64,000 bases of DNA from Candidatus Uhrbacteria bacterium (GTDB lineage: Bacteria; Patescibacteriota; Patescibacteriia; UBA9934; GWF2-40-263), in assembly GCA_016188425.1 (NCBI GenBank), contig JACPHX010000006.1:28585-92584 (forward strand), read 5' to 3'. Below the pieces are notes generated by a model. The model was given only the letters and a program-made list of their open reading frames with translations. It searched no databases and had not been told where the DNA came from. Positions 10,179-58,630 of the stretch are shown here, in pieces. The position numbers and the translations under genes were made by a program. The stretch's first letter is position 1. Each line of letters starts with the position of its first letter.

Positions 10179-10730
10179 ATGCGCATTCATCGACATCGAC
10201 AACGTAAACCTAAGTATAACGTCCAAGAGTACCGAGTCAACCAAACCATCACCGCGCCGCAGGTACGGGTCGTCGATGAGGATGGAACGGCCTACGGCGT
10301 TTTGGATATCGCCTCGGCATTGACCCTCGCCGCCCAGAAGGAAAAGGATCTGGTCGAGGTCTCCCCCAAGGGTGATCCGCCGGTCTGCCGTCTCTTGAAC
10401 TACGGTCACTTCCGCTACCAGAAGGAAAAGGAAGCGCGCAAAGCCAAAACGCAGTCCCATGAAGTGGAAGTCAAAGGCGTGCGCCTCACGGTTCGCATGG
10501 GTGAAGGCGACTGGGCCGTTCGGCTAGGCCAGGCAAAAAAATTCCTCGAGCGCGGAGACAAAGTCCGACTCGAACTCATCCTTCGTGGGCGTGAAAAAGC
10601 TCACAAAGAGGTCGGTCAGGATCGCATCAACGAATTCATGGTAGACCTCAAAGGTTTTTTCCCGTTGCGAGTCGAACAGACCGTTACCTTCCAAGCTGGT
10701 CGTTTCATTGCAATTCTAGCTCGGGAATAA
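10179..10730 (+). CDS. infC: Translation initiation factor IF-3
   Basis: ...ITAPQVRVVDEDGTAYGVLDIASALTLAAQKEKDLVEVSPKGDPPVCRLLNYGHFRYQKEKEARKAK... is a classic IF-3 sequence; true start codon may be non-AUG. Confidence 0.8.
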   Translation: MRIHRHRQRKPKYNVQEYRVNQTITAPQVRVVDEDGTAYGVLDIASALTLAAQKEKDLVEVSPKGDPPVCRLLNYGHFRYQKEKEARKAKTQSHEVEVKGVRLTVRMGEGDWAVRLGQAKKFLERGDKVRLELILRGREKAHKEVGQDRINEFMVDLKGFFPLRVEQTVTFQAGRFIAILARE

Positions 10731-10863
10731 AGGGGACAGACGGTTTGACAGGTTCCCTTCGCTCCCCTATGCTTGCAGCGACATACGGATGAATCCACAG
10801 GCGAATGTTTGCGGGCAGTCCGTGGGAGGGTTGCAGACCCGCCCCAACCTCACATTATTTTGT

Positions 10864-11025
10864 ATGAAATTGAAGACACACAAGGCACTGAAACGCCGGG
10901 TTCGGGTGACCAAAACCGGGAAAACCATGAAGCGATACGTTGGGCAGAACCATTTCAACGCCCGCGATACTGGAAAAGCCAGCCGCAAAAAACGCCGCGA
11001 CGTCCAATTCGCGCACAACCACTAA
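10864..11025 (+). CDS. rpmI: Ribosomal protein L35
   Basis: MKLKTHKALKRRVRVTKTGKTMKRYVGQNHFNARDTGK... L35 signature; infC-rpmI-rplT gene order. Confidence 0.8.
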   Translation: MKLKTHKALKRRVRVTKTGKTMKRYVGQNHFNARDTGKASRKKRRDVQFAHNH

Positions 11026-11192
11026 GAGGCTATCTCAAAAATCCTTTTCGACCGGCTCGGGCCAAAACGGCCTGCAATCGGTTCAGGATTCGTCGAAATA
11101 GTCCACACTATTCCTCCTCACCCTTCACCGATTTCGGCTCGTTTTGACCTCGACCCGGTTCGAAAATTATTTTTGAAATAACCTCTTCTATG

Positions 11193-11608
11193 CCACGTGT
11201 AAAACGCGGGATGCTTCACCTGAAGAAGCGCCGCACCATCCTCTCCCGCACCAAAGGGATGAAGTGGGGCCGCAAGTCCAAACTGCGCCTCGCCCGTATC
11301 GCGGCCTCTCCCGCACCAAAGGGATGAAGTGGGGCCGCAAGTCCAAACTGCGCCTCGCCCGTATCGCGGCCATCAAAGCCGGGGTATACGCCCATCGCGA
11401 CCGCCGCAACAACAAACGCAACTTCCGCCGTCTGTGGCAGGTTCGCATCAATGCCGCCGTTCGCCCACACGGGACAACCTATAGCAAATTCATCCACGAA
11501 TTGAGCACGAAAGGCATCATAGTGGATCGCAAAATCCTCGCCCTCCTTGCCAAGGATTACCCAGCCGCTTTTGAGGGAATCGTGAAGCAAGTCATGGCGA
11601 CCAAGTAA
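11193..11608 (+). pseudogene. rplT: Ribosomal protein L20 gene, frameshifted by a perfect 65-bp tandem duplication (intact L20 is restored if one copy is removed)
   Basis: ATG at 11193 gives MPRVKRGMLHLKKRRTILSRTKGMKWGRKSKLRLARIAA, then the duplicated 65 nt shifts frame to a TGA. Second copy continues in another frame as ...IKAGVYAHRDRRNNKRNFRRLWQVRINAAVRPHGTTYSKFIHEL..., the L20 consensus. Confidence 0.75.
11242..11371 (+). repeat. Perfect 2 x 65-bp tandem duplication inside rplT
   Basis: 11242-11306 and 11307-11371 are identical (tctcccgcaccaaagggatgaagtggggccgcaagtccaaactgcgcctcgcccgtatcgcggcc). Confidence 0.9.
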
Positions 11609-11619
11609 ATTTTGGAAAG

Positions 11620-11650
11620 AAAAACCCGTGAAAACGGGTTTTTTGTTTGG
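11620..11650 (+). terminator. Rho-independent terminator after rplT
   Basis: aaacccgtgaaaacgggttttttgttt hairpin plus T-run. Confidence 0.6.
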
Positions 11651-11667
11651 CAATGTTGACTTTTCGT

Positions 11668-11696
11668 AAATTTTCAGCTATATTTACTGGTCCCAA
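11668..11696 (+). promoter_or_regulatory. Sigma70-like promoter (TTGACT-N17-TATATT)
   Basis: ttgacttttcgtaaattttcagctatatt upstream of the gene starting at 11755. Confidence 0.45.
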
Positions 11697-11754
11697 TCCA
11701 CGGCCGTGCCTAAATCCGCGGCAACGATCACAACCAACAGAGGAGGATACTGGG

Positions 11755-15385: not shown

Positions 15386-15437
15386 TACAAAAAATCACCT
15401 TTTCAGGTGATTTTTTGGCGGACCGGACGGGATTCCT
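15386..15437 (-). repeat. Duplicate of the tRNA-Asp 3' end (22 nt) plus its terminator hairpin (~48 nt, 1 mismatch)
   Basis: caaaaaatcaccttttcaggtgattttttggcggaccggacgggattc matches 15567-15614 (terminator plus 3' end of the intact tRNA-Asp). Confidence 0.7.
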
Positions 15438-15592
15438 CCTCATCCGTCGTTCGCGGTGCCGGGGCGGCACATGCTCACTCCTCCTTCGGAGCCTGGGGCG
15501 TCCAAAACGTGAAGCAGTTCACGTTTTGGCCGTCCCCTTCGAATCCCGTCCGATCCGCCACACACAAAAAACCACCTTTTCAGGTGATTTTT

Positions 15593-15670
15593 TGGCGGAC
15601 CGGACGGGATTCGAACCCGCGATCTTCTCCGTGACAGGGAGACGTGTTAACCGGGCTACACCACCGATCC
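15593..15670 (-). tRNA. tRNA-Asp (GTC), CCA encoded
   Basis: rc GGATCGGTGGTGTAGCCCGGTTAACACGTCTCCCTGTCACGGAGAAGATCGCGGGTTCGAATCCCGTCCGGTCCGCCA; cloverleaf with anticodon loop CTGTCAC; terminator hairpin caccttttcaggtg plus T-run directly 3'. Confidence 0.85.
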
Positions 15671-18798: not shown

Positions 18799-18975
18799 GG
18801 TGAACAAGAGAAACCAAGGGCGAACAAGAGTGAACAGGAGAGATGGAAGAAAACTATCCTAATTGGAACAAACGAACGAAGACGGAGTTCAAAAATCAAA
18901 AATTATCAATGTCTCTTTCCTTCTCCCTTGTTCTCACTTGTTCACCCTTGTCATCCCTTGTTCACCTTCCTCCCC
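18799..18975. repeat. CAAGG-type short-tandem-repeat element, inverted pair (10-mer units GGTGAACAAG) flanking a 65-bp AT-rich spacer
   Basis: Left arm ggtgaacaagagaaaccaagggcgaacaagagtgaacagg; right arm is the imperfect reverse complement (cttgttctcacttgttcacccttgtcatcccttgttcacc). Between the ftsZ stop and nrdR start. Confidence 0.6.
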
Positions 18976-22662: not shown

Positions 22663-22762
22663 AAGGCAGGACGCAAGGGGCGCAAGAGGTCCAAGAGGCG
22701 CAAGGGGAGGAATCTTTGGGTGAGATTTAAACCAACCCGCAGGACGGTTTGGAAACCTGCCG

Positions 22763-23752
22763 TTACGGGATGATTTCGATACTGTTGATCATCATCTGGA
22801 ATGTCTGCAAATAATCGATGGTGGATTTGCCGTCTCCGTCGTAGACCAGGGAATAGGAGCTATTCCCGATGACAACCCAGGCCTTGAGCTGATCCTCGGA
22901 CATGAGCATTGGGTAGCCGTTCTTGGTTTTCGTTTCAAAGATCTTCTCTTGCGGGAATTGCTCATCGTGCCATTTCCGCAAAGAAACGATGTCGTCCTGA
23001 ACGCCCCCCGTGTTTACCGACACGCTCTCTGCGCTTGGGACGACAAATTTTAGCAGAGGTTCCTTCTCGCTTTTCCCATCCACTTTCGTCCAGATCGCGG
23101 GATAGAGCAAACGAATCCCACCCTTTCCAAACGGAACCAGGTCGACGGACTTCACAAGCCCCGTCTGCAACAAAGTGGCGGGGGCGGTCCCGTTGGGATT
23201 GTAGCGGTGGAATACTTCGTTCCCATCCAGGAATCCGTCCTTATCCGTGTCTGGTAACCGAGGATCGGTCTTGTAGATATTATTTTCCTCAACGTCCGTC
23301 AGCCCATCGCTATCGGAATCAATCCCCGGCGTCTTTACCGCGGAGACAGGGGGTTTCACCTCTGGGGGTTTCGGCGGCTCGACGATAGGAGGAACAACAG
23401 GGGGCTTAGGTTGAACGATCGGTGCTGGCTCCGGAGCGAGCCACTTAGGAATAAGAAAAAAGGCGGCGATCCCCCCAGCCACAAGGAACAGAAACAAAAA
23501 CACGACGAAGATCATTTTCTTGGAAGAACCTTTACGAGAAAGCGCAAGGGGCGCAGGAGGCACAGGGGGCGCAAGGGGTTTGGGCGAAGGATGAGGGACT
23601 GGGACGGACGTTTTTGCAGCGGGCTCGACGAGCTTTACCTCGGCTCCGTGGCGGTAAGCGACTGGCATCGTGAAAAGACGCATGCCACCATTGGAAGATG
23701 CGACGGTTTCAGATGCGGGGATTTGAAAGGCCATGGCGCCAGCCCCAGGCAT
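22763..23752 (-). CDS. Membrane protein with Pro-rich N-terminal tail, TM, TSP3-like Ca-binding repeats and C-terminal domain
   Basis: IDSDSDGLTDVEENNIYKTDPRLPDTDKDGFLDGNEVFHRYNP thrombospondin-type-3-like DxDxDG repeats. TM (MIFVVFLFLFLVAGGIAAFFL). N-terminal ...PKPLAPPVPPAPLAL is encoded by a GCGCAAGGG-type DNA repeat. Confidence 0.5.
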   Translation of the reverse strand: MPGAGAMAFQIPASETVASSNGGMRLFTMPVAYRHGAEVKLVEPAAKTSVPVPHPSPKPLAPPVPPAPLALSRKGSSKKMIFVVFLFLFLVAGGIAAFFLIPKWLAPEPAPIVQPKPPVVPPIVEPPKPPEVKPPVSAVKTPGIDSDSDGLTDVEENNIYKTDPRLPDTDKDGFLDGNEVFHRYNPNGTAPATLLQTGLVKSVDLVPFGKGGIRLLYPAIWTKVDGKSEKEPLLKFVVPSAESVSVNTGGVQDDIVSLRKWHDEQFPQEKIFETKTKNGYPMLMSEDQLKAWVVIGNSSYSLVYDGDGKSTIDYLQTFQMMINSIEIIP

Positions 23753-23755
23753 AGG

Positions 23756-24442
23756 TTATGGGGTTACAGGTGCAACAGGAGCCGGAAGAAGCTTCCCTTC
23801 CCCCGCGGGGTTATAGCCGTTTTTTACTTCTGTGCCATCCGCAAACCCATCGCCATCGGAATCGGCATTTTTTGGATTAGTTTTGTATTTCATGATTTCC
23901 TCCCGGTCGGACAACCCGTCTCCGTCGGTATCCGCCACGCTTGGATTCGTCCCGTAAAACGCTTCTTCTTGGTCTGTCAGGCCATCGCCATCCGTATCCG
24001 TAGCGGCCACAGGTGCTGGAGTTGGGGTGGTTATTGGAGCAACTGGAGGAGCTTCTGTCGTCGGTTCCACAACAGGCGGAGTGACTGGCTCTGTGGGAGG
24101 CGCTTGGGTGTTCGGCGGCGCTTGTGGAGCAGGTTGTGGCGTCTGATCGAGAAACGGAATCCCCTTTGACTGTTGTGCCAGCAATGTAAACGCCACGTAT
24201 GCCGCGGCGACAATGACGACTAAAACGCCGACGACAATGAGAATTGCCTTCCATGGGAAACCGCCACGGGAGGACTCTTCCAGGGGCGCAGGGGGCGCAA
24301 GAGGCACAAGGGGCGCAGGGGGTTCGGAAGGGAGGGGGACGGGAGACGGGAGGCGGGGAGCGGAGGGCGTTGGCAAAGCGGGAGGGGCTTCTGTGGTGTC
24401 CGCGAACATATCTTCGGGCTCTGGGGTGAGTTGGTCGGGCAT
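23756..24442 (-). CDS. Membrane protein with TM and three TSP3-like repeats; ends ...NGYNPAGEGKLLP...
   Basis: Paralogue of the downstream gene; DTDGDGLTDQEE..DTDGDGLSDREE..DSDGDGFADGTE. Start uncertain: the ORF extends to 24490 through a repeat arm. Confidence 0.5.
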   Translation of the reverse strand: MPDQLTPEPEDMFADTTEAPPALPTPSAPRLPSPVPLPSEPPAPLVPLAPPAPLEESSRGGFPWKAILIVVGVLVVIVAAAYVAFTLLAQQSKGIPFLDQTPQPAPQAPPNTQAPPTEPVTPPVVEPTTEAPPVAPITTPTPAPVAATDTDGDGLTDQEEAFYGTNPSVADTDGDGLSDREEIMKYKTNPKNADSDGDGFADGTEVKNGYNPAGEGKLLPAPVAPVTP

Positions 24443-24443
24443 A

Positions 24444-24601
24444 GGGGGAAGGGTGACCAAGGGTGAACAAGAGAGAACAAGGGTGAACAAGGGGGGGAAT
24501 TAGTAGGACGTTAACAATCAGAACAAATGAAACAAATCATTTTCATGTTTTTATAAAACTATTCGCTTCCTCCCCTCTTGTTCTATCTTGTTCACCCTCC
24601 T
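24444..24601. repeat. CAAGG-type short-tandem-repeat element, inverted pair (GGTGAACAAG units) flanking a 69-bp AT-rich spacer
   Basis: gggtgaccaagggtgaacaagagagaacaagggtgaacaagg ... cctcttgttctatcttgttcaccctcc. Confidence 0.6.
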
Positions 24602-25453: not shown

Positions 25454-28400
25454 TTAGCGGGCCGGGCATGCCGCGGCGCTGACGTTGGAGATGGTGCATC
25501 CGGTGGGACAATCGGCCCGGATATTTATAGGAATCGATGAAACGCCGTCACAGCCCAGAAGTCCCGCAGGAATCGGAATGATTTGTCCGACCCCTTGCGT
25601 CAGGATCCCAACCGATTGCACCGTGTTCCCATCCCTATCCTTCCCTGTCACCGTGACGCTAAACGGCGAGAAAGAGTCGACAATGAACCTGGCGGCGGAG
25701 ATGAATACGCTCTGCGTCCAGGCGGTGTAGGCGTATTCCACGCCGGTGTTTGGCCCGCAGACGCGCGGCGAAGAAAGATCTGTCGATGTGCGGTAGTGCT
25801 GCAGCTGGGTTTGGGTCGGAGTGGTAGGCGACGCGTTCCCCCAAGCGCACAGGTCATTGGTGACGGAAGCCATGACGCCCGCTCGCTCGACTCCCGCCGT
25901 ATCCACCAAAGGATCCATTGTATTCGTGATCGTGAGGGAATACACGCGACGGGCAGGGTTCTTGAGACTGCCGTCGGGATTCTTCACGATGTTCACCAGG
26001 TTCCAGGCAGGAGAGTCTACCGGATCTGAATCGGAGACGATAATCATGACCTGATCCGCCGAACCCGAGAACATGCCATTGGCCACACTCACCCCCGCGT
26101 TGACAAGCGCACTTCCCGCCGCATCTGCCCCGGTGAGGTTCACGACTTTGTTTCTTGCCAGATTGGTATCCGCATCGAGCGCCTGACCGACCGCGGCTCT
26201 GTCACCAAATACCGCCAACCCCACTCGCAAGATTTTCCCAGACCCCTGCCATCGATTCCGCATCAAGTCGATTTGCGCCGCCACCGCATCTCCCGCCTCC
26301 TGCAGACGGGTAGAGCCCCCGAACGCCCTGGACATGCTCGCGGTCTTATCCAGCACGAACACGACATCCGTGTCATGGGGCGCGGGGGCGCCCGGGATGC
26401 GAACGTCCATGGTGAGGGTACTCAACACGGAACACACGGGGAGAAACACTTTCGCATCGTTGGGGAATTGCCCCGAGGCCTGGCTGAAGAGCGTCACGGA
26501 ATCGACCAAGGTGGAGTTTACGATTTCTGGGAGCATCCGAGCTTTTTGGGAAGTGAACACGGGTGGGCAGGTAGACGCGCAATCACCGGCGCATTTGGCA
26601 ACGACGCAGACTCCTCCGCCTCCTACGCAACTCGGGTCCAGCAGGGCGTCGACGCTCGCATCGCGCACACAACGCATCCCCACATTCGTTCCTCCATCAC
26701 AATAGCCGATTTCTTTACAACTTGTGCCGACCGTCGAACATGCTCCGCCTGGGAACGTACAGGCCCCTCCCATCAAAACACCGGGGGACGGAAAAGTAAT
26801 GATCCCGGAACAAATCCCGGCGCTATTCGCCGCCATCAATCCGTCGCAAAGTTCGGTCCCTTCAATGACATTGTTTCCACAAAACGCCCCCGTCACCGTT
26901 TCAAAGCGGCAGTCTCGGGTACAGCCCGTACACACGCCGCCGTAGGGGGCGTTGCAGCCGTTCCCGTTTTGGCTGCCGTTGTCGCAGGATTCGACTCCTA
27001 AATTCACGACATTGTCGCCGCAGACGGCTGTTTTACAGCTATTAGTACATCCATCGTTGTCGTTTCGATTTCCGTCATCGCATTCTTCGGTGCCGGTCTT
27101 CCGCCCGTCGCCGCAATACTGACCGCCGCCGTTTGGTGAACCAACACGATCATATCCTTTGCAGGCATTCGCTCCAGAGGTCGAACAAGTCAATGAATAC
27201 TGGATTGGATACGTTTGAGCGGAACACGATCCTCTCACATAATCGGCATCTCCCGGAACACCCTTGTCGCAATTTTGCGGGATGGAACAGATCCCTCCTA
27301 TCTTCACTGGATCCCCCTGATCACAGACATTTGAAAGGACAGGAAACACGCAGGGTGTTGTGTCGACAGGACAATCGGCCACGCCATCACCTGTACAATA
27401 ATTCGTCGGATCCAGTTCACAATATCCCACCGGCTCTTTTGCATATCGTGTTGCCGGATCATTCGGATCGCAAATTTCATTGTTCGCCGTCTGCACCAGC
27501 CCGTCCCCGCACGACGGACCGACGCCGCGGCAGTCCGCGGCGCACGCAGAACCATACTCGCCGTTTCGCAATGTCCCGCAATGCGCCGCCGTTGCCCAGC
27601 CGCCCAGCGCGGTACTGAACAGGCCGCCGCAGTCACAACTCTCACCAGCGTCCAAAGTTCCATCTCCACAGATGTTCCGCTGTGTCCCCGTCGCGATCTG
27701 ACAATCGGAGGGGCAGTGGCCGTAGGTGCCGTTGAGGAAACCTTCGTCGCAATCCTCGTCTTCATCCGGCACGCCGTTGCCGCATTGGTAGGCGACACAG
27801 GTGGCGGAGGAACCGGTATCCGTTGTGAAGGCGCAGACATTCTGGGTCATGGGGGTACAGGCGGCGCCGGAGACGCCACAGGTGCCGCTTCCCAAACAAT
27901 TGGAGTCGGACACGCAATGCAACCCATCTCGAATTCCACCCGAACAAATCTTGCAATTGGCAGCGACAGCACACGCTCCAAAACTCGGATCTCCTCCACA
28001 GAACAATGTTGCACAATAGAGCGACGCGCTTTCGCAGTCAGCCGTTGTTGTACAGGAACGTTGGTAGGGTAATTGACCAGGAGCGAACGTGACGGCGCAC
28101 AATCCCGCCGTGGGTGCACACGGGACGAGTTTGTGTCCGTCCTTTTCGACCGACCGATCACAGGTAATGCTTGGACAATCGGTCGCCTGCGTCGCCACCG
28201 TACATGTCGTGTTCGCAGCAGCCGTCCCCCCGACGCATTTCAAGGTCGCCGGATCACAGCTTCCTCCAGGCGTCGTCGCGCAATCTGTTGCCTCGGAACA
28301 ATACGACCCGTCGCGCGTCCCTCCTTTGCAATACCCAAGCTTACAATCTACCGGTTTAATCTGCCCGACTTCACAAAACTCATTCGCCCCTTGGATGCCG

Positions 28401-31400
28401 TCGCCGCAGATCGCCGAGGCGCCAACCACCGTTCCTTGACAGAAGGAGTTGGGATAGAAACCGTCAGGGACAGAGGCGGGGGGATCATCTACACAGGCCG
28501 CATTGCCGCCCACCGTACAATCCTCCCCCCCTCGATTCCCTCCCACGCAGGTGGCTCCATTGCAATACCCATGCAGCACGTTGTATTCCGCGCGCAATGA
28601 AGAGTAATCGTTGGTATCCTGGTCGATATTTTCACTCCAAGGATAGTCCCCGTATTCCAGCATCCCTACGAGGTGATAGGCCGTGCTGCCGACGCCCTGG
28701 TACGCATAGATATGCGATCCTGGCGCGCACGCGAACTTCCCCGCCGTCGAATCGAAACAAGTCTCCGGGTCCGGATTGAACCCGCCCGAGCTGTCACAAG
28801 AGGAGAAACGGTTAATCGAATCGATAGGCAGCGTCCCTCCGACCAAGTTCCCGAGTTGCGCCTGCCAGCTGGGCCAGCGGCTGACGCTTTGCGCGCGGAT
28901 GAACGTCCCTTCGGAAAGCGCGGGGATGGAGGGGAGGCAGGCCTCGCCGATCGGACATTCGAAATCGAACCGGCAGGCGATGTCGGAACGAACCTCACAA
29001 TGGCCGTTACGCTGGGCCACGGTGCGTATGGCATCCTCCATCTTCAACAACTCTGTGAGGCGCACGGTATCGCGTCGTAATTTTGGCTTGTCCGCGCCGC
29101 AATACTGCCGGTCGCCGCAATCGCCGTCCCAGCTGCAACCAACCGGCTTGCCATCCGCATCCGTAGCGATCGCCGCCGTCCCCATGCCCACGCACACGTT
29201 AAACGATTCAACATTGGTGTTGAACTTCCAGTTCGCGATCGCTTGGTTGAAAATCTGCACTGCCACGTCGCCCGCATTTGGGTTGGTCGTCACCACGAAA
29301 ATGTTCGGATGCAGCTTGTTGTCGTCCCCCAACGTCGGCGCCGCGATATAAGCGGTATTTCCATCGCGCACCGCATCGTATCCGTCGATCTTGATGGGCT
29401 GCGGGCTCCCTTGGAAATTCTGGACGCGATACCAGTCCATGGCCGACAAATAGCCCGGGTTGCCGAGCACTTTCACGCCCAACGCATCCGTTTTAACGAC
29501 ATGGCTTACGTTCATCTCATCCACGAAAGTCTGGTTGGCAATGTACAAGCTTTCTTTGAACACTCCACGCGCCGTGACAGGCGTCGCGACATGCACGTAC
29601 TCCAAACGGGGCAAATCGTCCGCCGTGCTTGCCGGATCCCCCACATCCGCACAATAGAAGAACTGGTAATAGGTGGGGTCGCTCTCGCCAGGGTCGAACG
29701 TGGTGCCGTCATCGAGTGCGGAGTCGGTATCGCGGAAATAGTAGGGTTGCTCACACAGTGGAGCAAACAAATCCACGGATCCGTTCACGACCTTGGAGGG
29801 GGTCGTGTCGGTTCCCTCAAAGATGCTCGCACTGGCCATCGCCGTGCCCTCGCCCGTCTTTCCAAGGGCTGTATATCGCCGATACTGATCGTTGGTCGCA
29901 TAATCTGGATCCGCATCATTTCCAAAGACGGCTGATGAATCGGAAGGGAGGATAGTCCAGGCGTAGGTCCACGCGTACACGCCCGTGATGGATTGCAACG
30001 GCTGCGTTTGGTTCAACGTAAACGCCGTTGAGAGAAGCCGATGCTCCTCATTCGTTTTTCGGAAGACTTGCGAGTGGAGCGGGAGCCTTGGGTTCCCGGC
30101 GGCCGGAAGCGCGGCTCGATCCCCCAAATCTTGCACCACCACTTGCTCTACTTTGCAAAGTTCCGAAGTGGTCGTGAACGGAATCACATGCACCCCACCC
30201 GCCTCCTTTGGCAAACCAACGCCATGCTCGCTCAAAAGGCCGATCTTCGTGGCAGGATCGCCATCATCGGTATTGATGACGAGCTGGTAGGTTTGGCCTG
30301 CTGCGGTGGGCTCTAATGCTTGGGAAAGTTTTATGTGCATCTGCGCCTTTTCATAAATGGCATCCGGGTCGGGAAGCGTGTCCACCCAGTCCACCACCTC
30401 AAATGTGATGGGCAGGTAGCAGACTGAGCTCTGGGCGGAAACAGAATAGCCAAACAGCCACCGGAAACTAGAAACGATATGATGCCAGGCCTTGGCATAC
30501 CAGGTATTGGGAACGGCCTCCGCTGTGAGATAGCCGGCCGGACACGTCCCTCCAACCAGTTCCAAATGGACATTCTCATCCAACAAGTCTTCCGCCATCG
30601 GCTGATCGAAGTTCACGAAGATATCGGCATTGCGGCAAATCTGCGGAGTGCCAGATAAAGGCGGGAAGGAACTGACAATGGTCGGACGCGGGTAACAGCA
30701 TCCGGTCTCGGCACACGCGTACACCGGTGGAAGCGACGGATCCGGATCGATGCATTGGGTGTCATCCGTACACGTGCAGGAAACACTGTATTTTGCGGTT
30801 CCCTTCACGGTGTTTGCTTCTGCGGTAATCGTGGACGTGGCAATTTTTGTGAGCGGATCCAATTCCACTGCGGCATTCAGATCGATTTTGGCGAGCGTAA
30901 ACGCGGGTGTAAAGACAGCAGTGCCCGCGTACTCGCATTCCTCACCGATCCCCGTGGCCTTGTCGCCGCAGAACGAAGGGGTCGTGTACGTACTCGACGA
31001 CCCTTCTGCCAAGCAGTTCATGGAACAGCCGTCGCCGCTCGTATAGTTGCCATCATCGCAATCTTCTCCAGGATCCACCACCGCCACTCCCGCGCCAGGA
31101 GGATCGCCACAGCAATTCGTCAAATGCGTCGCGTCACAGATACGCAATCCCTCATTGAGACACAAGGAAGAACATCCATCGCCATCCACAGCATTGTTGT
31201 CATCGCAATCTTCTCCTGGTTCTTGCGTCCCATTCCCACAAATCCCGATCAAGGCCGCGGCCGACATGGCGATCGTGCCTTCATGAAGACAAATGGAGGA
31301 ACATCCATCGCCGTTGAACCGGTTCCCATCATCGCACTCTTCCCCGCCAACAGCCGCACTGTAAGCCACGTGGCCATCGCCGCAAGTCGTACGCGCGGCG

Positions 31401-34400
31401 GCCGATCCTTCATTGAGGCAGCGAGAAGAACATCCGTCGCCATTGATGACATTCCCATCATCGCACTCTTCCGGCGCATCTAAAGATCCGTTCCCGCAGG
31501 CGGCGTTTTCTATGCCTATATGGATACACGTAGGTCCGCAGCCAAACGGCAGCGGCCCGCCCGAAAAGGCCGCATCGCAATCTTCCCCCGCTTCAACCAC
31601 GCCGTTTCCGCAATGCGGATCGGTTATTTTAATAAGACTTCCTGTGTGTAAACAGCTTCCCGCACACCCGGCCGGGAGCGAAGCACCTATGGTCAATGTC
31701 GAATCGACCGTAGCAACATCCACGTTCGCATCTGCGGGCGGCACATCGACGTCCGCGCTGCTCCAAGGGGACCACGCCACGTTTGTTTGGAGATATTGCC
31801 CGGTAGGAGAACAGGCATCCGGTGCGCTCTTGGGGAGGCCGATGAATAGCTGCGTATCCCCTATCGATGTGGTTTGCGCCGCCTCCGGCCGCACTTCAAC
31901 GCTCGCCACGTCGCAGCGATCCCCTGTTCCGCTGGTCTTGAACACCCAGGAATAGTCATTGGTATAGCCGTGATTCTGATCGTCGTTGGATCCGTCAATG
32001 GATAAGGCAACGCCGCCGCTGGCATCCGTGATGTTGCCAGAGACGACCACGCGGTAGAACGTATCGGCAATCAGGGAACTGTTGAGGTTGATCCCCACTT
32101 CGCGGCAACCGCTCGCCGCCGGCGAGGTATCCAGACAGACGGGAGTCACGAGATACGCATTGCGATTAATGCGCGCCGCATCGCCATCGACGCACAATTC
32201 ATTCGGACATTGCCACAGGGAGTAATTCCCGGTGGTAAGGGCCTGGGTCGAGTTCATCTCCGTATTGAAACGGACGCCCGCGCTCGCATTGATGCAGGCC
32301 TCGCCGCAATCCGGCCACACATGCTCAACCTGCGGGTTGGGAAACTCCACCGTGATATCTGCCTGGCCGCCGACGGGGGTCGTGATCCCTGTGAGCAAGG
32401 CCACGATATGGGCAGGATCGGGATTGGTTTCCGCAAGAGCGGTGGCGGTGTTATCAAAATTGGTATCAGCCGTGACGACGGAAACGGATCCGGATTGGGT
32501 GCTGGACCAGGCAAATGAATAGGCCGCCGGATTCAGAACCAGACAGCGACCTGCCATGGGCAGTGCGTCATAATCCTGTGTCTTCGCTACAGAAGCAAGC
32601 GTTGTATCTGCGGGAGACACAAGTACGCCGCTGACGTCGCAATCTGTCCCGGCACGAACTTTGAAACGGAAAATGTAATCGCTTCCCAGTTTTTCCCCAA
32701 GCTGCGGGGGAACATCGATAGCCTTAAACAAGTTGCCTCTGAGAGTCACCCTGTAGGTGCTTCCAGCCGCAAACGGAGTCGCGGGCGTCCATAAAAAGAC
32801 TTTCGGTTTTGGATCAGAAGGAGGCGAGACAGCAAATGTCCCCGTCACGGGCGAAACCGTGTCACAGGGGTCATCCCCCGTATCCGTACACGTATCCACC
32901 GCGACGGCCGCGCCGTTAAAGGTGGTCAAATCCATCTTGGTTGTGAACTCCACCCGGATGATCGACGTGGTACAAGCATCCTCTCCCCACGCATCCCACG
33001 GGGAAGGCGATACAACCCGCTTGTCATCCGATGGATTGAGGGTACCGCGCGTGTCGATGGAACACTCTTCCAAGACGCGAGGAATGACAGGCAAGGGCCC
33101 CGTTGCAAACTGATACACAAAACTCGCGGCCACGGGTTGTTTGCACACATCCGCACAACTCCCGTCCGCACAGCACAAGTAGCCGATGCCAAACCCATGG
33201 CAATAATCCGCACTCTCTTCCCGGCAGTCGCTCACCGAAAACGGCAAAGGGTTGCTCGTATAACCGGCTCCCGCCGTTGTCGCCGTGACGGCACCCGTTG
33301 TCGCGCCGACCGGAACTTGCGCCCCGCTGATTTCATCGTTATCCCACGCCGCCACCACGGCAGGAACTCCATTGAAAAAATCCACCGTCCCCGTCGTCGT
33401 CCCAAGATTCTCGCCGTCCAGTTTAACAACGCTACGATTCGCCGCCGTCCATTCAGGCCCCGAAACGGGTGTCAATTTGCACAAAGCCGGCCCAGGTTGG
33501 TCATCGATGACCGTGAATGGCGCCGGGCCAGAACTCTGCGCGTCGGAAGATCGTTGCACGAAAATGTTATGGGTAAGGTATTCGATGGGATCCGGCGGAG
33601 CCACATACGTCGTCGGCACCTTCACAAGAATGGTGCTGTCGTTCCAAAGAGCCGCCCCGCACGCCGGTGGAAAATCTGTATCAGCCAAGGCGAAGACGCC
33701 CCCCCCTTTGTCAAAAGTAACCGTTCCTCCGAATCCGAAATGCGATCCAAGAATGGTGACATACTGCCCTGGTGGCCCCCAATCATTCACTTCCGCGCAA
33801 GAAATGGACGCCCCGCAATCCGCCACGGCATTGGCGACGGAGCAATGCGCTCCATCATTCGCTCCACCTGCACACGCATGCCAGCCAGAGACGACTTCAT
33901 TGATGACCGGCGGGTTGGCATCGGCATCCTGGGTAAAGACAAGTGGGTTGGATCCTTGTCGGAGCGGAAGGCAGACCCCGTCCGCAGGCGCGCACCGGTC
34001 GGTCGCCGAACAAAGTTCTGCCGTATTGATAGAACAGGCGTCCTCCCCAATAAACATCCTCACGTAATGCGATCCGGAACTCAAGAGCGGAGCCGTGGCG
34101 GTGGCGGACGTGCTGGACCATGTGGCTGTGTTGTAGGAAGTCGCTCTTGATGCATCGAAATAGACGGTCGAAGAAGCCGTATACGTCGAACCGAAATTCT
34201 TTCCAGAAAGCGTGACGCTGGACTGCCGCGGCCCGGTGGAAGGACTGATGGAACAAAGCCCGGGACGGACAATCGTGTTCACGTCAAAATCCGCAATGTG
34301 CGGGCCGTAGGTATCATCCGTCTGATCCGTTTTTGTCGGGTCGTCCCCCCGAAGGACTTCGATGGGGCCATCAACCGCTCCCACGGGAACCTCCACGACG

Positions 34401-35911
34401 ATCAACCGGTCCCCCCATTGCGGAGAGCCGCTGCAGACCGCGGCTGATACGGTCTTCTCGTCACCAGAAACAGGTGATCCTAAGAAAACCACTGTGCCCG
34501 CGCTCGCGGTTGGGCCGAAATTGCGGCCGATGATGCTGATGAGGTTTCCGACGGCTCCGTCTCCAGGCGTCACCTGGTCGATCCGCGGCCGCGTGTCTGC
34601 GGCACAGACGCCGGCGACGCACACTTCGTCCGTGCCGCAATCCGTATCGACGGAACAGGCGCCTCCTACGCATGCGCCGCAGTAATACTGGCTGGTCGTG
34701 CTTCCGCCGCAGTTCAGCTCGGTCTCGCCCAAATCCGTATCGATGGCGAGGTTGTTGCAATTGGCCGCGCGCAGGAACACCCTCGACGTCGTACTCGTCT
34801 CATTCGCCGCACAATCAAACCCCTTCATCCCGATCGTATACTGGCGGTTGGTCATGTACCCCGCCGCATCCCACTCCGATCCGTCATCGAAAAACAAACG
34901 CTCCGTGGTCGGGAACGGCTGCCCCGCAACGGGGAATGAATCGCTCGTCGAAAGGTCGGAGGAGGGGGTGAACAAGGTTCCATTGACGGAAAAATCGACG
35001 GCGTCTACCCCGACATCATCTTTGGTATAGGCCTGCAGGTCGATCGGGAACCCCCCCGCAAACACCACCGTGCCGTCCGCGGGCGCGTCGGCATGAACCG
35101 TGGATGGCGGAGCCGTGTCTATCGTTGCCAATGGGTCTATGGCAAACGAATACGTGCAGGGATGGGTCACGTCGCACACCAATGCCCAGCCGTTAGTTGA
35201 ACGGAGGATGGAAGGATCTGCCTTCACCGTATAACTCGTATCCGCCGGCAGACACGGAACCCCGGAACAGGTATTGGCGGGGGTAAACGTTACCCTCGAC
35301 CCAACGAGAGAAAACGTTCCTGGAACATCGTCCGACGTTGCGTCATCAATCACCCGCAACCCGCCGACAAGGGTGCTGTCTGGCAGCTGGATCCTGCTCA
35401 TCTCCGGGGGTCTCGTAAAAGAAAACTGGAGCAGCGTATTGGAAACGAATTCAAAACAATCTACGTTGAGCGGATTAAGCTGGAAGGAACGGCCCGGGGA
35501 CGGAGGGAATACCGGGTCTCTAGCCGGCTCCGATGAAGTCGTTCCCCCGCTGATCGCCGATGACAGGCGGCTGATGACAAAACTCGCAATCCCGTAGGCC
35601 CCCAAAATGAGAACGAGCCCGATCAGTCCGTTTCGAAGGATATCCCTCCCCTTCTTGACCCGCTTCTGATCACCGGCGGAGGTAAGGAACACCCATCCGC
35701 CCCACAGCACGATGAGCACTGCCAAAACTCCCAGGAAACCCAACAGGACGCTGATCAGTTTTGCGACGATCAATGGCACGCTGTCATTCACCCCCAGCCC
35801 CGCGATGTTCGCGAACGTGCCGGTAAGGCCGAAATTCGTTTGCGCCAACGCCACTTGCGGCATAAGCAGCAGAAGGAGTGGGAACAGACGAATGAGAAGG
35901 CGCTTGATCAC
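25454..35911 (-). CDS. Giant (3485 aa) surface protein: signal peptide plus TrbC/VirB2-like pilin membrane module, Ig/IPT-like regions, Myxococcus-type Cys-rich repeats (CGxGxxExGEECDDGN..GDGCS..C), C-terminal vWA domain with MIDAS
   Basis: N-terminus MIKRLLIRLFPLLLLLMPQVALA|QT...VLIVLWGGWVFLTSAGDQKRVKKGRDILRNGLIGLVLILGAYGIASFV. Cys repeats lie in roughly the second quarter of the protein plus a second cluster nearer the C-terminus. vWA DVVFVLDKTASMS...IIVSDSD at ~25860-26370. Confidence 0.7.
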   Translation of the reverse strand: MIKRLLIRLFPLLLLLMPQVALAQTNFGLTGTFANIAGLGVNDSVPLIVAKLISVLLGFLGVLAVLIVLWGGWVFLTSAGDQKRVKKGRDILRNGLIGLVLILGAYGIASFVISRLSSAISGGTTSSEPARDPVFPPSPGRSFQLNPLNVDCFEFVSNTLLQFSFTRPPEMSRIQLPDSTLVGGLRVIDDATSDDVPGTFSLVGSRVTFTPANTCSGVPCLPADTSYTVKADPSILRSTNGWALVCDVTHPCTYSFAIDPLATIDTAPPSTVHADAPADGTVVFAGGFPIDLQAYTKDDVGVDAVDFSVNGTLFTPSSDLSTSDSFPVAGQPFPTTERLFFDDGSEWDAAGYMTNRQYTIGMKGFDCAANETSTTSRVFLRAANCNNLAIDTDLGETELNCGGSTTSQYYCGACVGGACSVDTDCGTDEVCVAGVCAADTRPRIDQVTPGDGAVGNLISIIGRNFGPTASAGTVVFLGSPVSGDEKTVSAAVCSGSPQWGDRLIVVEVPVGAVDGPIEVLRGDDPTKTDQTDDTYGPHIADFDVNTIVRPGLCSISPSTGPRQSSVTLSGKNFGSTYTASSTVYFDASRATSYNTATWSSTSATATAPLLSSGSHYVRMFIGEDACSINTAELCSATDRCAPADGVCLPLRQGSNPLVFTQDADANPPVINEVVSGWHACAGGANDGAHCSVANAVADCGASISCAEVNDWGPPGQYVTILGSHFGFGGTVTFDKGGGVFALADTDFPPACGAALWNDSTILVKVPTTYVAPPDPIEYLTHNIFVQRSSDAQSSGPAPFTVIDDQPGPALCKLTPVSGPEWTAANRSVVKLDGENLGTTTGTVDFFNGVPAVVAAWDNDEISGAQVPVGATTGAVTATTAGAGYTSNPLPFSVSDCREESADYCHGFGIGYLCCADGSCADVCKQPVAASFVYQFATGPLPVIPRVLEECSIDTRGTLNPSDDKRVVSPSPWDAWGEDACTTSIIRVEFTTKMDLTTFNGAAVAVDTCTDTGDDPCDTVSPVTGTFAVSPPSDPKPKVFLWTPATPFAAGSTYRVTLRGNLFKAIDVPPQLGEKLGSDYIFRFKVRAGTDCDVSGVLVSPADTTLASVAKTQDYDALPMAGRCLVLNPAAYSFAWSSTQSGSVSVVTADTNFDNTATALAETNPDPAHIVALLTGITTPVGGQADITVEFPNPQVEHVWPDCGEACINASAGVRFNTEMNSTQALTTGNYSLWQCPNELCVDGDAARINRNAYLVTPVCLDTSPAASGCREVGINLNSSLIADTFYRVVVSGNITDASGGVALSIDGSNDDQNHGYTNDYSWVFKTSGTGDRCDVASVEVRPEAAQTTSIGDTQLFIGLPKSAPDACSPTGQYLQTNVAWSPWSSADVDVPPADANVDVATVDSTLTIGASLPAGCAGSCLHTGSLIKITDPHCGNGVVEAGEDCDAAFSGGPLPFGCGPTCIHIGIENAACGNGSLDAPEECDDGNVINGDGCSSRCLNEGSAAARTTCGDGHVAYSAAVGGEECDDGNRFNGDGCSSICLHEGTIAMSAAALIGICGNGTQEPGEDCDDNNAVDGDGCSSLCLNEGLRICDATHLTNCCGDPPGAGVAVVDPGEDCDDGNYTSGDGCSMNCLAEGSSSTYTTPSFCGDKATGIGEECEYAGTAVFTPAFTLAKIDLNAAVELDPLTKIATSTITAEANTVKGTAKYSVSCTCTDDTQCIDPDPSLPPVYACAETGCCYPRPTIVSSFPPLSGTPQICRNADIFVNFDQPMAEDLLDENVHLELVGGTCPAGYLTAEAVPNTWYAKAWHHIVSSFRWLFGYSVSAQSSVCYLPITFEVVDWVDTLPDPDAIYEKAQMHIKLSQALEPTAAGQTYQLVINTDDGDPATKIGLLSEHGVGLPKEAGGVHVIPFTTTSELCKVEQVVVQDLGDRAALPAAGNPRLPLHSQVFRKTNEEHRLLSTAFTLNQTQPLQSITGVYAWTYAWTILPSDSSAVFGNDADPDYATNDQYRRYTALGKTGEGTAMASASIFEGTDTTPSKVVNGSVDLFAPLCEQPYYFRDTDSALDDGTTFDPGESDPTYYQFFYCADVGDPASTADDLPRLEYVHVATPVTARGVFKESLYIANQTFVDEMNVSHVVKTDALGVKVLGNPGYLSAMDWYRVQNFQGSPQPIKIDGYDAVRDGNTAYIAAPTLGDDNKLHPNIFVVTTNPNAGDVAVQIFNQAIANWKFNTNVESFNVCVGMGTAAIATDADGKPVGCSWDGDCGDRQYCGADKPKLRRDTVRLTELLKMEDAIRTVAQRNGHCEVRSDIACRFDFECPIGEACLPSIPALSEGTFIRAQSVSRWPSWQAQLGNLVGGTLPIDSINRFSSCDSSGGFNPDPETCFDSTAGKFACAPGSHIYAYQGVGSTAYHLVGMLEYGDYPWSENIDQDTNDYSSLRAEYNVLHGYCNGATCVGGNRGGEDCTVGGNAACVDDPPASVPDGFYPNSFCQGTVVGASAICGDGIQGANEFCEVGQIKPVDCKLGYCKGGTRDGSYCSEATDCATTPGGSCDPATLKCVGGTAAANTTCTVATQATDCPSITCDRSVEKDGHKLVPCAPTAGLCAVTFAPGQLPYQRSCTTTADCESASLYCATLFCGGDPSFGACAVAANCKICSGGIRDGLHCVSDSNCLGSGTCGVSGAACTPMTQNVCAFTTDTGSSATCVAYQCGNGVPDEDEDCDEGFLNGTYGHCPSDCQIATGTQRNICGDGTLDAGESCDCGGLFSTALGGWATAAHCGTLRNGEYGSACAADCRGVGPSCGDGLVQTANNEICDPNDPATRYAKEPVGYCELDPTNYCTGDGVADCPVDTTPCVFPVLSNVCDQGDPVKIGGICSIPQNCDKGVPGDADYVRGSCSAQTYPIQYSLTCSTSGANACKGYDRVGSPNGGGQYCGDGRKTGTEECDDGNRNDNDGCTNSCKTAVCGDNVVNLGVESCDNGSQNGNGCNAPYGGVCTGCTRDCRFETVTGAFCGNNVIEGTELCDGLMAANSAGICSGIITFPSPGVLMGGACTFPGGACSTVGTSCKEIGYCDGGTNVGMRCVRDASVDALLDPSCVGGGGVCVVAKCAGDCASTCPPVFTSQKARMLPEIVNSTLVDSVTLFSQASGQFPNDAKVFLPVCSVLSTLTMDVRIPGAPAPHDTDVVFVLDKTASMSRAFGGSTRLQEAGDAVAAQIDLMRNRWQGSGKILRVGLAVFGDRAAVGQALDADTNLARNKVVNLTGADAAGSALVNAGVSVANGMFSGSADQVMIIVSDSDPVDSPAWNLVNIVKNPDGSLKNPARRVYSLTITNTMDPLVDTAGVERAGVMASVTNDLCAWGNASPTTPTQTQLQHYRTSTDLSSPRVCGPNTGVEYAYTAWTQSVFISAARFIVDSFSPFSVTVTGKDRDGNTVQSVGILTQGVGQIIPIPAGLLGCDGVSSIPINIRADCPTGCTISNVSAAACPAR

Positions 35912-38608: not shown

Positions 38609-38709
38609 AAAGGTCGAAGGTCAAAGTTCGAAGGCCGAAGGAAGGTTTTGTCTTTTTTAAAACAATGCCTTCTTCCAACCTTCGACCTTCAGAATTCGAC
38701 CTTCGACCT
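38609..38709. repeat. GAAGG-type short-tandem-repeat element, inverted pair (GTCGAAG 7-mer units) flanking ttttgtcttttttaaaacaatg
   Basis: aaggtcgaaggtcaaagttcgaaggccgaaggaagg ... ccttcttccaaccttcgaccttcagaattcgaccttcgacctt. Confidence 0.65.
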
Positions 38710-38733
38710 TATTTCTCAGCGATGTCTTCCCTT

Positions 38734-46487: not shown

Positions 46488-46578
46488 CAAGTTTCAAGGG
46501 TCGCAAGGGCGACAAGGGTTTCAAGAGCAAATGATTTAAGACAAACGCCCTTGCGACCCTTATAACACTTGAAACCCT
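46481..46578. repeat. CAAGG-type short-tandem-repeat element, inverted pair (9-mers GTTTCAAGG/GTCGCAAGG/GCGACAAGG)
   Basis: tttcaagggtcgcaagggcgacaagggtttcaagag ... gcccttgcgacccttataacacttgaaacccttgcaacccc; between convergent dprA and ABC exporter genes. Confidence 0.65.
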
Positions 46579-46592
46579 TGCAACCCCTCTCT

Positions 46593-49698: not shown

Positions 49699-49784
49699 GG
49701 TTCGCAAGGGTTTCAAGGGTGACAAGAGTCTCAAGGGCATGTTTTTCCAAGTGCGCTTGCAACCCTTGAAACCCTTCCCCCTCC
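49699..49784. repeat. CAAGG-type short-tandem-repeat element, inverted pair, immediately upstream of the topA promoter
   Basis: ggttcgcaagggtttcaagggtgacaagagtctcaagggc ... gcgcttgcaacccttgaaacccttccccctcc; followed by TTGACT-N16-TAGAAT. Confidence 0.65.
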
Positions 49785-54847: not shown

Positions 54848-54986
54848 ATTAAGGGCGCAAAGGGCGCAGGAGGTCCAAGGGGCGCAAGGGGAGGGATGAG
54901 AAACACGAAGTCGAAAGTGTAATGCGCGCTTGCTCGCCTATATTCCTGCGCCCCTTGGACCCCTTGCGCCTCTTGCGCCTTCCTTA
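54848..54986. repeat. CAAGG-type short-tandem-repeat element, inverted pair (GGGCGCAAG 9-mers) between parA and parB
   Basis: aagggcgcaaagggcgcaggaggtccaaggggcgcaagggg ... cctgcgccccttggaccccttgcgcctcttgcgcc. Confidence 0.65.
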
Positions 54987-58595: not shown

Positions 58596-58630
58596 TGCGC
58601 CCCTTGGACCCCCTGCGCCCCTTGCGCCCT
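58590..58630. repeat. GGGGCGCAAG-type short-tandem-repeat element, single arm (4 units)
   Basis: cccattgcgccccttggaccccctgcgccccttgcgccc between scpA stop and scpB start. Confidence 0.6.

What the first reader, a model, noticed from the sequence alone, without database searches (positions are those of the whole stretch)
11242..11371. Perfect 65-bp tandem duplication frameshifts the essential ribosomal protein L20 gene
Positions 11242-11306 are repeated exactly at 11307-11371. 65 is not a multiple of 3, so rplT (ATG 11193) hits TGA after 45 codons, and the remainder of L20 continues in another frame. Deleting one copy restores a textbook 118-aa L20. Because L20 is essential, this is most likely an assembly/consensus artefact or a minority variant. 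If real, it would require programmed frameshifting or a second rplT copy elsewhere.
Basis: seen in the sequence. Interest (0 to 1): 0.55.

Follow-up and report, generated by a model that had tools for sequence, protein, structure and literature searches.

The report
Likely assembly duplication in L20 gene
The exact 65-base duplication that breaks the essential ribosomal protein L20 gene exists only in the deposited metagenome-assembled genome, while three independent assemblies of the same groundwater bacterium show a normal intact gene, so it is most likely a local assembly error or at most a rare variant.

Summary
The perfect 65-nt tandem duplication is really in the sequence (period-65 identity 11240-11371). 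It splits rplT into a 45-aa ORF and a 94-aa ORF, and removing one copy gives a full-length 117-aa L20. The window is a Candidatus Uhrbacteria (CPR) MAG, where NCBI annotates the pieces as a 'hypothetical protein' and a short 'L20'. Independent Logan assemblies of three sequencing runs (SRR12113420/21/22) match the window almost perfectly: 2 SNPs and no other indel over about 41 kb. All three carry one copy of the 65-mer. They also show two further MAG-only lesions within about 300 nt: a 36-nt in-frame deletion of the conserved L35 C-terminus and an orphan 161-nt hairpin insertion between rpmI and rplT. Three relatives share the intact layout. No product specific to the broken form exists elsewhere in public data. 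The MAG came from an uncurated MEGAHIT plus IDBA-UD-scaffolding pipeline, for which the same laboratory has described such local errors. Best reading: a local assembly or scaffolding error at a strain-variable spot. Less likely: a real but defective minority haplotype. Recoding (an A_AAG_GGA-UGA slip site, or ATGA reinitiation) is possible on paper but poorly supported. Read mapping would settle it. Low interest.

The parts
10179..10730 (+). infC (IF3, 183 aa), first gene of the infC-rpmI-rplT operon. Identical in the Logan assemblies.
   Evidence: Pfam IF3_N and IF3_C. The exact protein is found in SRR12113421 and SRR12113422.
10745..10773 (+). Promoter-like site (TTGACA-17-TATGCT) upstream of rpmI.
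   Evidence: Consensus scan. Similar TTGACA...TATACT motifs are visible upstream of rpmI in relatives L010 and L011 (seen in sequence).
10864..11025 (+). rpmI (L35) in the shortened 53-aa MAG form. 36 nt (12 codons, QIHRRTLPALLPY region) are missing at 11015|11016 compared with the 65-aa form in the Logan assemblies.
   Evidence: Alignment A1. NCBI MBI2550990.1 is this 53-aa protein. The 65-aa form passes the Pfam L35 cut-off (29.6 bits) and the 53-aa form does not (27.2 bits against a cut-off of 28.9). Relatives keep the C-terminal tail.
11026..11186 (.). 161-nt MAG-only insertion between the rpmI stop and the rplT start. It is an imperfect palindrome or long hairpin with 28-nt terminal inverted repeats, 47.8% GC, and no relatives found.
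   Evidence: Absent from L001-L004 and L009. Inverted repeat arms 86% complementary. Folding energy -66.4 kcal/mol, z = -8.5. No other copy in the window. No Rfam family. No real match in GTDB representatives, JGI metagenomes, IMG/VR, phages or plasmids.
11190..11327 (+). 5' fragment of rplT: a 45-codon ORF (L20 residues 1-38 plus SPAPKG, then TGA). Annotated at NCBI as hypothetical protein HYV73_01440.
11240..11304 (+). Copy 1 of the 65-nt unit.
   Evidence: TRF, the repeat finder and a direct string comparison.
11305..11371 (+). Copy 2 of the 65-nt unit (11305-11369) plus the 2-nt CC junction microhomology (11370-11371). This copy is absent from all three Logan assemblies.
11318..11327 (+). 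In frame 0 the second copy reads A_AAG_GGA followed by TGA: an X_XXY_YYZ heptamer, then a stop. The stop overlaps ATG 11324-11326 as ATGA. A -1 shift or a reinitiation here would enter the L20 frame.
   Evidence: Read from the sequence. The heptamer class is listed as shift-prone in E. coli by PMC4066793. No notable downstream structure.
11324..11608 (+). 3' part of rplT: a 94-aa ORF (L20 residues 24-117). Annotated at NCBI as 50S ribosomal protein L20 (MBI2550992.1).
   Evidence: (PF00453, profile positions 24-105).
11620..11645 (+). Hairpin followed by a T-run after rplT (AAAAACCCG-TGAAAA-CGGGTTTTT), the probable operon terminator.
   Evidence: Seen in the sequence only. The consensus scan did not list it.

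Best explanation
The 65-nt duplication is not a property of the organism's genome. The window comes from an uncurated short-read MAG (Candidatus Uhrbacteria, groundwater project PRJNA640378), built with MEGAHIT and then IDBA-UD scaffolding. At the rpmI-rplT junction the deposited scaffold carries a local assembly or scaffolding error. The probable setting is a strain-variable spot where one path carried a 161-nt hairpin insertion. On that reading, two overlapping contig ends were joined without merging their 65-nt overlap, which gives an exact head-to-tail repeat. The real gene is a single uninterrupted 117-aa rplT, starting 3 nt after a full-length 65-aa rpmI. The annotated 45-aa 'hypothetical protein' and 94-aa 'L20' are by-products of the error. 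Shown: the duplication, its effect on the reading frame, and its absence from three independent assemblies and from relatives. Inferred: the actual mechanism of the error, and that the MAG belongs to the same project as the runs.
For: (1) Logan assemblies of SRR12113422, SRR12113421 and SRR12113420 cover the locus. All three have one copy of the 65-mer, a 117-aa L20, a 65-aa L35 and a TAA-TCT-ATG junction. (2) Over about 41 kb the MAG and the SRR12113421 contigs differ by 2 SNPs and no indel other than three structural changes, all inside 11016-11306. Three random events would fall that close together with P of about 2e-4, so this is one local problem and not scattered mutation. (3) The k=31 Logan contigs stop 30 nt into the 40-nt repeat at 15396. 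The inference is that they would also stop at a true 65-nt repeat, yet they run straight through. (4) Eight ORF products specific to the broken form are absent from about 15 billion proteins, while a control ORF of the intact form is present. The 45-, 94- and 53-aa products occur only in the NCBI MAG. (5) All L20 homologues listed are 106-125 aa and none has the 22-residue insertion. Three relatives have the intact layout. (6) The methods describe MEGAHIT plus IDBA-UD scaffolding with no local error correction. The same laboratory reports that local errors are prominent with IDBA-UD, including duplicate sequence at scaffold joins and wrong repeat numbers, with 13 errors found in one 1.13-Mb CPR genome. 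(7) The shared stretch between the end of the insert and the duplication junction is 118-120 nt. That equals k-1 for k=119, a value in MEGAHIT's default k list as I recall it. This is suggestive only.
Against: A de Bruijn graph cannot invent the junction CGCGG|CCTCT from a 2-nt overlap, so a non-graph step (a scaffolder butt-join) or real reads must have produced it. I could not show which. An overlap of 65 nt is not k or k-1 for any default k, and I cannot explain why the second contig would start at 11240. The 161-nt insert looks like evolved DNA: its arms are about 77% identical with indels, and its GC is lower than the window's. It must therefore exist in some reads. The MAG also differs from the run-level consensus at 2 SNPs, so it may come from a slightly different subpopulation or sample in which the haplotype could be real. 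I could not identify the MAG's source run.
Confidence: 0.68

Rival explanations
1. The duplication is a real but defective haplotype. On this reading a subpopulation of this Uhrbacteria strain carries three linked lesions on one molecule: the L35 tail deletion, the hairpin-element insertion, and a recent slipped-strand tandem duplication at a CC microhomology. The assembler followed this branch. The cells carrying it would be non-viable, transient, or reverting quickly by loss of one repeat copy.
For: The junction has the 2-nt microhomology typical of spontaneous tandem duplications. The insert looks biological rather than synthetic. The insert and the duplication junction are only 118-120 nt apart, so 141-mers and 150-nt reads could link them. 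The MAG differs from the run consensus at 2 SNPs, which hints at a distinct subpopulation.
Against: The haplotype is not seen in any of three independent run assemblies or in any other gene call in public data. All three lesions damage conserved parts of an essential operon. A dominant strain with a broken rplT is far less likely a priori than one of the roughly ten local errors per Mb reported for such assemblies.
Confidence: 0.24
2. The duplication is real and functional through recoding or a split protein. L20 would be made from the broken gene in one of two ways. Either a -1 slip on A_AAG_GGA before UGA gives a 139-aa L20 with a 22-residue internal repeat, or termination-reinitiation at the ATGA overlap gives a 94-aa L20 lacking residues 1-23, perhaps together with the 45-aa N-terminal peptide.
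For: The required shift is -1. The frame-0 sequence at 11318-11327 is an X_XXY_YYZ heptamer followed by a stop that overlaps an in-frame ATG. A_AA.G_GG.A is listed among the shift-prone heptamers in E. coli.
Against: Without a stimulator even the best heptamers shift at about 0.3%, and no significant downstream structure is present (z = -1.7). The motif is just native coding sequence read out of frame. The arrangement is absent from relatives and from the same population. The N-terminal extension of L20 is the part needed for 50S assembly, and its truncation leads to accumulation of 50S precursors.
Confidence: 0.04
3. This locus is a decaying extra copy (pseudogene), and an intact rpmI-rplT elsewhere in the genome supplies the proteins.
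For: Three independent damaging lesions in one operon resemble pseudogene decay.
Against: The flanks are identical over more than 4 kb on each side to the locus that holds the intact genes in the Logan assemblies, so both forms sit at the same chromosomal position. The synteny (smpB, infC, rpmI, rplT) is the standard single-copy one in relatives. There is no second rplT or rpmI in the 64-kb window. I could not search the rest of the genome.
Confidence: 0.03

Closest known systems
Local assembly and scaffolding errors in short-read MAGs, as described by Chen et al. 2020, Genome Res (PMC7111523)
   Same: The change is confined to a few hundred bases of an otherwise correct scaffold. It duplicates sequence exactly and corrupts a protein-coding gene. 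It comes from the same laboratory pipeline family (IDBA-UD scaffolding) in an uncurated CPR genome.
   Different: There is no run of Ns at the join. The 65-nt overlap does not equal a default k or k-1. Lack of read support, which is the defining criterion, could not be tested here.
Spontaneous microhomology-mediated (slipped-strand) tandem duplication in a bacterial gene
   Same: Exact head-to-tail copies with a 2-nt microhomology at the junction, not a multiple of three in length, and readily reversible.
   Different: It would inactivate an essential gene, and the same population assembled independently does not carry it.
Programmed -1 ribosomal frameshifting (dnaX, IS3/IS911 type)
   Same: An X_XXY_YYZ heptamer (A_AAG_GGA) sits in the 0 frame, and a -1 shift there restores the downstream frame.
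   Different: No stimulatory structure or upstream Shine-Dalgarno sequence was found. The site is not conserved in relatives. It arose only because native coding sequence is read out of frame after the duplication.
MITE- or ERIC-like intergenic palindromic elements (comparison for the 161-nt insert only)
   Same: Small, non-coding, with terminal inverted repeats. It folds into one long imperfect hairpin and sits between two genes of an operon.
   Different: No target-site duplication is visible, and no second copy was found in the window or in any searchable collection.
Bacterial infC-rpmI-rplT operon and ribosomal protein bL20 (Pfam PF00453)
   Same: The gene order, a promoter-like site before rpmI, the tight rpmI/rplT junction in the intact form, and a full-length L20 once one copy is removed.
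   Different: As deposited, the L20 ORF is split (45 aa plus 94 aa), L35 lacks its conserved C-terminus, and rplT is separated from rpmI by 164 nt.

Membership tests
Ribosomal protein bL20 (Pfam PF00453) | Full-length match to the family profile above the curated cut-off | tested here: met
   With one copy removed: 109 bits against a cut-off of 30.8, profile positions 1-105 of 107. The sequence is 100% identical to the 117-aa protein P0121 called in the Logan assemblies.
Ribosomal protein bL20 (Pfam PF00453) | Encoded as one uninterrupted ORF of about 115 aa | tested here: not met
   As deposited the gene is split into 45-aa and 94-aa ORFs. The listed homologues are 106-125 aa and none has the insertion.
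Ribosomal protein bL20 (Pfam PF00453) | Position in the infC-rpmI-rplT operon | tested here: met
Programmed -1 ribosomal frameshift site | Slippery heptamer X_XXY_YYZ in the 0 frame, with -1 leading into the downstream ORF | tested here: met
   A_AAG_GGA at 11318-11324, and a -1 shift gives the L20 frame. The heptamer class is listed in PMC4066793.
Programmed -1 ribosomal frameshift site | Stimulatory element (downstream hairpin or pseudoknot, or an upstream SD-like sequence) | tested here: inconclusive
   The fold of 11300-11420 is not unusual (z = -1.74; 16 of 200 shuffles fold as well). Pseudoknots were not examined.
Programmed -1 ribosomal frameshift site | Conservation of the two-frame arrangement among relatives | tested here: not met
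   Relatives, and the same population, have a single in-frame ORF.
MITE-like mobile element (161-nt insert) | Terminal inverted repeats on a short non-coding element | tested here: met
   28-nt arms, 86% complementary. The whole element folds at -66.4 kcal/mol, z = -8.5.
MITE-like mobile element (161-nt insert) | Target-site duplication | tested here: not met
   The insertion lies between TAA and TCTATG with unambiguous borders and no flanking direct repeat (read from the alignment).
MITE-like mobile element (161-nt insert) | Several copies in the genome or in related genomes | tested here: not met
   No other copy in the 64-kb window. Only chance 24-nt matches in GTDB representative genomes. 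Nothing in JGI metagenomes, IMG/VR, phages or plasmids. The rest of this MAG could not be searched.
Local assembly error (criteria of PMC7111523) | The consensus in the region lacks perfect support by reads | not testable with these tools
   Raw reads cannot be mapped here.
Local assembly error (criteria of PMC7111523) | Not reproduced when the same population is assembled independently | tested here: met
   Three Logan run assemblies give the intact form. No variant-specific product exists elsewhere.
Natural slipped-strand tandem duplication | Exact head-to-tail copies with short junction microhomology | tested here: met
   Period-65 identity over 132 nt, with CC at the junction. This does not distinguish it from a butt-join artefact.

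The most novel reading that the evidence does not exclude
The three-lesion haplotype is real and dominant in its source sample. On this reading, this ultra-small CPR bacterium lives with a split L20. A 45-aa N-terminal peptide and a 94-aa C-terminal protein would be made by termination-reinitiation at the ATGA overlap, or a 139-aa protein by -1 slippage on A_AAG_GGA-UGA. The trigger would be insertion of a hairpin mobile element that uncoupled rplT from rpmI.
Probability: 0.04. Interest if true: 0.6.

Novelty: not a real feature. Interest (0 to 1): 0.1.

Why it matters
The main value is as a data-quality flag. An essential ribosomal protein gene of a public CPR genome is recorded in NCBI nr as three wrong products: a 53-aa L35, a 45-aa hypothetical protein and a 94-aa L20. 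These could mislead studies of ribosomal protein loss or shortening in CPR bacteria. If reads were to support the haplotype, it would instead be a rare natural case of a bacterium tolerating, or recoding around, a broken L20 gene, together with a new hairpin insertion element. The present evidence makes that unlikely.

Tried and rejected
(1) Exact-product look-ups of the 114-aa GTG ORF and of P0001 found no indexed contig. The NCBI contig itself is not in the position index, so the MAG's own flanks beyond the window could not be fetched. (2) I looked for other copies of the 161-nt insert. blastn within the window found none. An arm-consensus pattern in GTDB representative genomes gave four hits that match only the 24-nt pattern, so they are chance matches, and the MAG itself is not in that set. 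The insert core is absent from IMG/VR. The arm pattern is absent from JGI metagenomes (one search was a syntax error). blastn against phages and plasmids found nothing. (3) This species' rplT 5' 30-mer is absent from JGI metagenomes. (4) Rfam at a permissive E-value over 10650-11700 gave only sub-threshold chance hits, with no L20 leader and no family for the hairpin. (5) I tested whether the insert is related to the second palindrome at 15417-15563. It is not (alignment z = 0.15 and 1.2). (6) I tried to identify the MAG's source sample and coverage from the He et al. supplement. Several Ag-site Uhrbacteria MAGs with 55-56% GC are listed, some from co-assemblies, but nothing maps them to locus tag HYV73 or to SRR numbers. 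(7) Guillier et al. 2005 on N-terminal truncations of L20 is not held. I used secondary citations instead. (8) A perfect fold-back (palindromic contig) artefact was rejected as the origin of the insert, because its arms are only about 77-86% matched and contain indels. (9) Simple k-mer overlap concatenation was rejected as a full explanation of the duplication, because 65 is not a default k or k-1.

Full report
**Observation.** The repeat is real. Positions 11242-11306 and 11307-11371 are identical. TRF gives one array at 11240-11371 with period 65, 2.0 copies, 100% matches and score 264, and nothing else like it in the window. The period-65 identity covers 132 nt, so the junction carries a 2-nt CC microhomology. 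The copies can equally be written 11240-11304 and 11305-11369. The rplT ATG is at 11190, not 11193. Frame 0 reaches TGA at 11325-11327 after 45 codons. The rest of L20 continues in the -1 (+2) frame from ATG 11324, or from GTG 11264, to 11608. Removing one copy gives a 117-aa protein that matches Pfam PF00453 over profile positions 1-105 of 107 at 109 bits.

**Context.** The gene lies in a standard infC (10179-10730), rpmI (10864-11025), rplT operon, next to smpB and tmRNA on the other strand. The nearest database protein is a 94-aa '50S ribosomal protein L20 [Candidatus Uhrbacteria bacterium]' on a 112,077-bp NCBI contig. Exact look-ups show that NCBI annotated the locus as three products: L35 of 53 aa (MBI2550990.1), 'hypothetical protein HYV73_01440' of 45 aa (MBI2550991.1), and L20 of 94 aa (MBI2550992.1). 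The window therefore reproduces a deposited CPR MAG faithfully.

**Independent assemblies.** The identical IF3 is encoded on Logan contigs assembled from runs SRR12113422 and SRR12113421, and a short contig from SRR12113420 covers rpmI-rplT. All three are collinear with the window and carry only one copy of the 65-mer, with a 117-aa L20.

They also reveal two more MAG-only differences just upstream:
- The window lacks 36 nt (12 codons) at 11015|11016. L35 therefore ends ...FAHNH instead of ...FAQIHRRTLPALLPYNH.
- The window has 161 extra nt (11026-11186) between the rpmI stop and the rplT start. The Logan contigs read TAA-TCT-ATG at that point.

Over about 41 kb covered by SRR12113421 contigs, the MAG otherwise differs by only 2 SNPs (6242 and 39305) and no indel. 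Three random events would fall within 290 nt of 41 kb with a probability of about 2e-4. The three changes are therefore one local phenomenon.

**Polarity.** Three relatives (L20 identity 67-73%) share the smpB/infC-rpmI-rplT synteny and have rplT starting 1-3 nt after rpmI. Their L35 is 64-65 aa with the C-terminal ...LIP(Y)N tail, and none has an insertion in L20. The 120 best homologues are 106-125 aa. The 65-aa L35 passes the Pfam cut-off and the 53-aa form falls just below it. The Logan form is therefore ancestral, and all three MAG-specific changes are derived and damaging.

**Is the broken form seen anywhere else?** Eight ORF products that only the broken form could encode are absent from the roughly 15-billion-protein collection. 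A control ORF of the intact form (a spurious antisense ORF called in one Logan contig) is present. The 45-, 94- and 53-aa products occur only in the NCBI MAG. The Logan contigs (k = 31) end 30 nt into the 40-nt repeat at 15396, which shows that they break at true repeats. I infer that a true 65-nt repeat would have broken them as well, yet they run straight through rplT.

**The insert.** It is an imperfect palindrome with 28-nt terminal arms that are 86% complementary. The whole element folds at -66.4 kcal/mol (z = -8.5). Its GC is 47.8% against 56.2% for the window, and the arms are about 77% identical with small indels. It has no target-site duplication and no second copy in the window. It matches no Rfam family. 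It has no relative in GTDB representative genomes, JGI metagenomes, IMG/VR, GenBank phages or PLSDB plasmids. It looks like evolved DNA and not a perfect fold-back artefact, so it probably exists in some reads, perhaps as a strain variant. It carries only a weak promoter-like match.

**How the MAG was made.** SRR12113421 belongs to BioProject PRJNA640378, the groundwater study of He et al. 2021. That the MAG comes from this project is my inference, based on the near-identity to those runs. The methods are 150-bp paired reads, MEGAHIT 1.2.9 with default settings, and then the IDBA-UD scaffolding function. Curation was at the level of bins only, with no local error correction. Chen et al. 2020, from the same laboratory, make several relevant statements:
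- Scaffolding can leave duplicate sequence where flanking contigs overlap.
- Wrong repeat numbers can be incorporated.
- One 1.13-Mb CPR genome held 13 such errors, which is roughly 0.7 per 64 kb.

One further hint: the shared stretch between the end of the insert and the duplication junction is 118-120 nt. That is k-1 for k = 119, which is in MEGAHIT's default k list (from my own knowledge). A unitig of insert-specific k-mers would end exactly at 11304, the last base of copy 1. This fits a butt-join of overlapping contig ends at the edge of a variant branch. It does not explain why the next contig would begin at 11240, so I treat it as suggestive only.

**Biological alternatives.** The shift needed to restore the frame is -1. 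In frame 0 the second copy reads CCA AAG GGA TGA. That is the X_XXY_YYZ heptamer A_AAG_GGA followed by a stop, and the stop overlaps ATG 11324 as ATGA. A_AA.G_GG.A is listed as shift-prone in E. coli, but even the best heptamers shift at about 0.3% without a stimulator. The downstream fold is unremarkable (z = -1.7). A slip would give a 139-aa L20 with a 22-residue repeat inside the N-terminal extension. Reinitiation would give a 94-aa protein lacking residues 1-23. The cationic N-terminal extension is the part of L20 that penetrates the 23S rRNA and is needed for 50S assembly, and its truncation leads to accumulation of 50S precursors. Neither route is likely to supply a stoichiometric ribosomal protein. 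The motif is also simply native coding sequence read out of frame. No second rplT or rpmI lies in the window. The broken and intact forms occupy the same chromosomal position, because their flanks are identical. This argues against a pseudogene with a working copy elsewhere.

**Verdict.** My estimates are:
- A local assembly or scaffolding error at a strain-variable spot in an uncurated MAG: about 0.68.
- A real but defective linked haplotype that the assembler happened to follow: about 0.24.
- Functional recoding or a split protein: about 0.04.
- A decaying extra copy: about 0.03.

Whichever of these holds, the population's rplT is an ordinary intact single-copy gene. Only read mapping can separate artefact from minority variant. 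The finding matters mainly as a correction to three mis-annotated NCBI proteins.

Noticed in passing
window 18802-18966, 22672-22704, 23542-23578, 24282-24493, 38610-38710, 46491-46586, 49705-49776, 54851-54979, 58591-58629, 59341-59373: Many spots carry arrays of 3-5 head-to-tail 9-10-nt units of the type NNNCAAGGG (for example GCGCAAGGG GCGCAAGAG GTCCAAGAG GCGCAAGGG). They often occur as an inverted pair of arrays flanking a 20-60-nt AT-richer centre. The period is about one helical turn. They could be binding-site arrays at divergent promoters or terminators of this CPR genome.
   Followed up: partly
window 15396-15435 and 15573-15612; 15417-15563: An exact 40-nt direct repeat made of a terminator-like hairpin plus the 3' end of tRNA-Asp (the gene is at 15593-15670, minus strand). 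Between the copies lies a 147-nt palindrome bounded by inverted tRNA-3'-end-like arms (-83.3 kcal/mol). It may be the scar of an element integrated at tRNA-Asp. It is not related to the 161-nt rpmI-rplT insert. The Logan contigs break here.
   Followed up: partly
window 11026-11186: An orphan 161-nt hairpin insert between rpmI and rplT, present only in the MAG. If reads support it, it would be a new small palindromic insertion element in a CPR bacterium, independent of the duplication.
   Followed up: yes
window 10864-11025: The L35 gene of the MAG lacks 12 conserved C-terminal codons compared with the same population assembled independently and with relatives. NCBI holds the 53-aa form as '50S ribosomal protein L35'.
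   Followed up: yes
window 25454-35911 (-) and 35924-37726 (-): A 3485-aa ORF followed by a 600-aa ORF. Both have weak or faint Pfam hits to T4SS_pilin, Big, TIG and VWA domains, which suggests giant surface proteins of the kind common in CPR genomes.
   Followed up: no
window 6242 and 39305: These are the only two base substitutions between the MAG and the SRR12113421 contigs over about 41 kb (T vs A and G vs A). They suggest the MAG consensus comes from a slightly different subpopulation or read set.
   Followed up: partly
L009 8102-8461 (SRR12113421 contig): On an intact rplT, the collection's gene caller missed L20 and instead called a spurious 119-aa antisense ORF (P0125). This shows that the absence of a gene call in these assemblies is weak evidence on its own.
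   Followed up: yes
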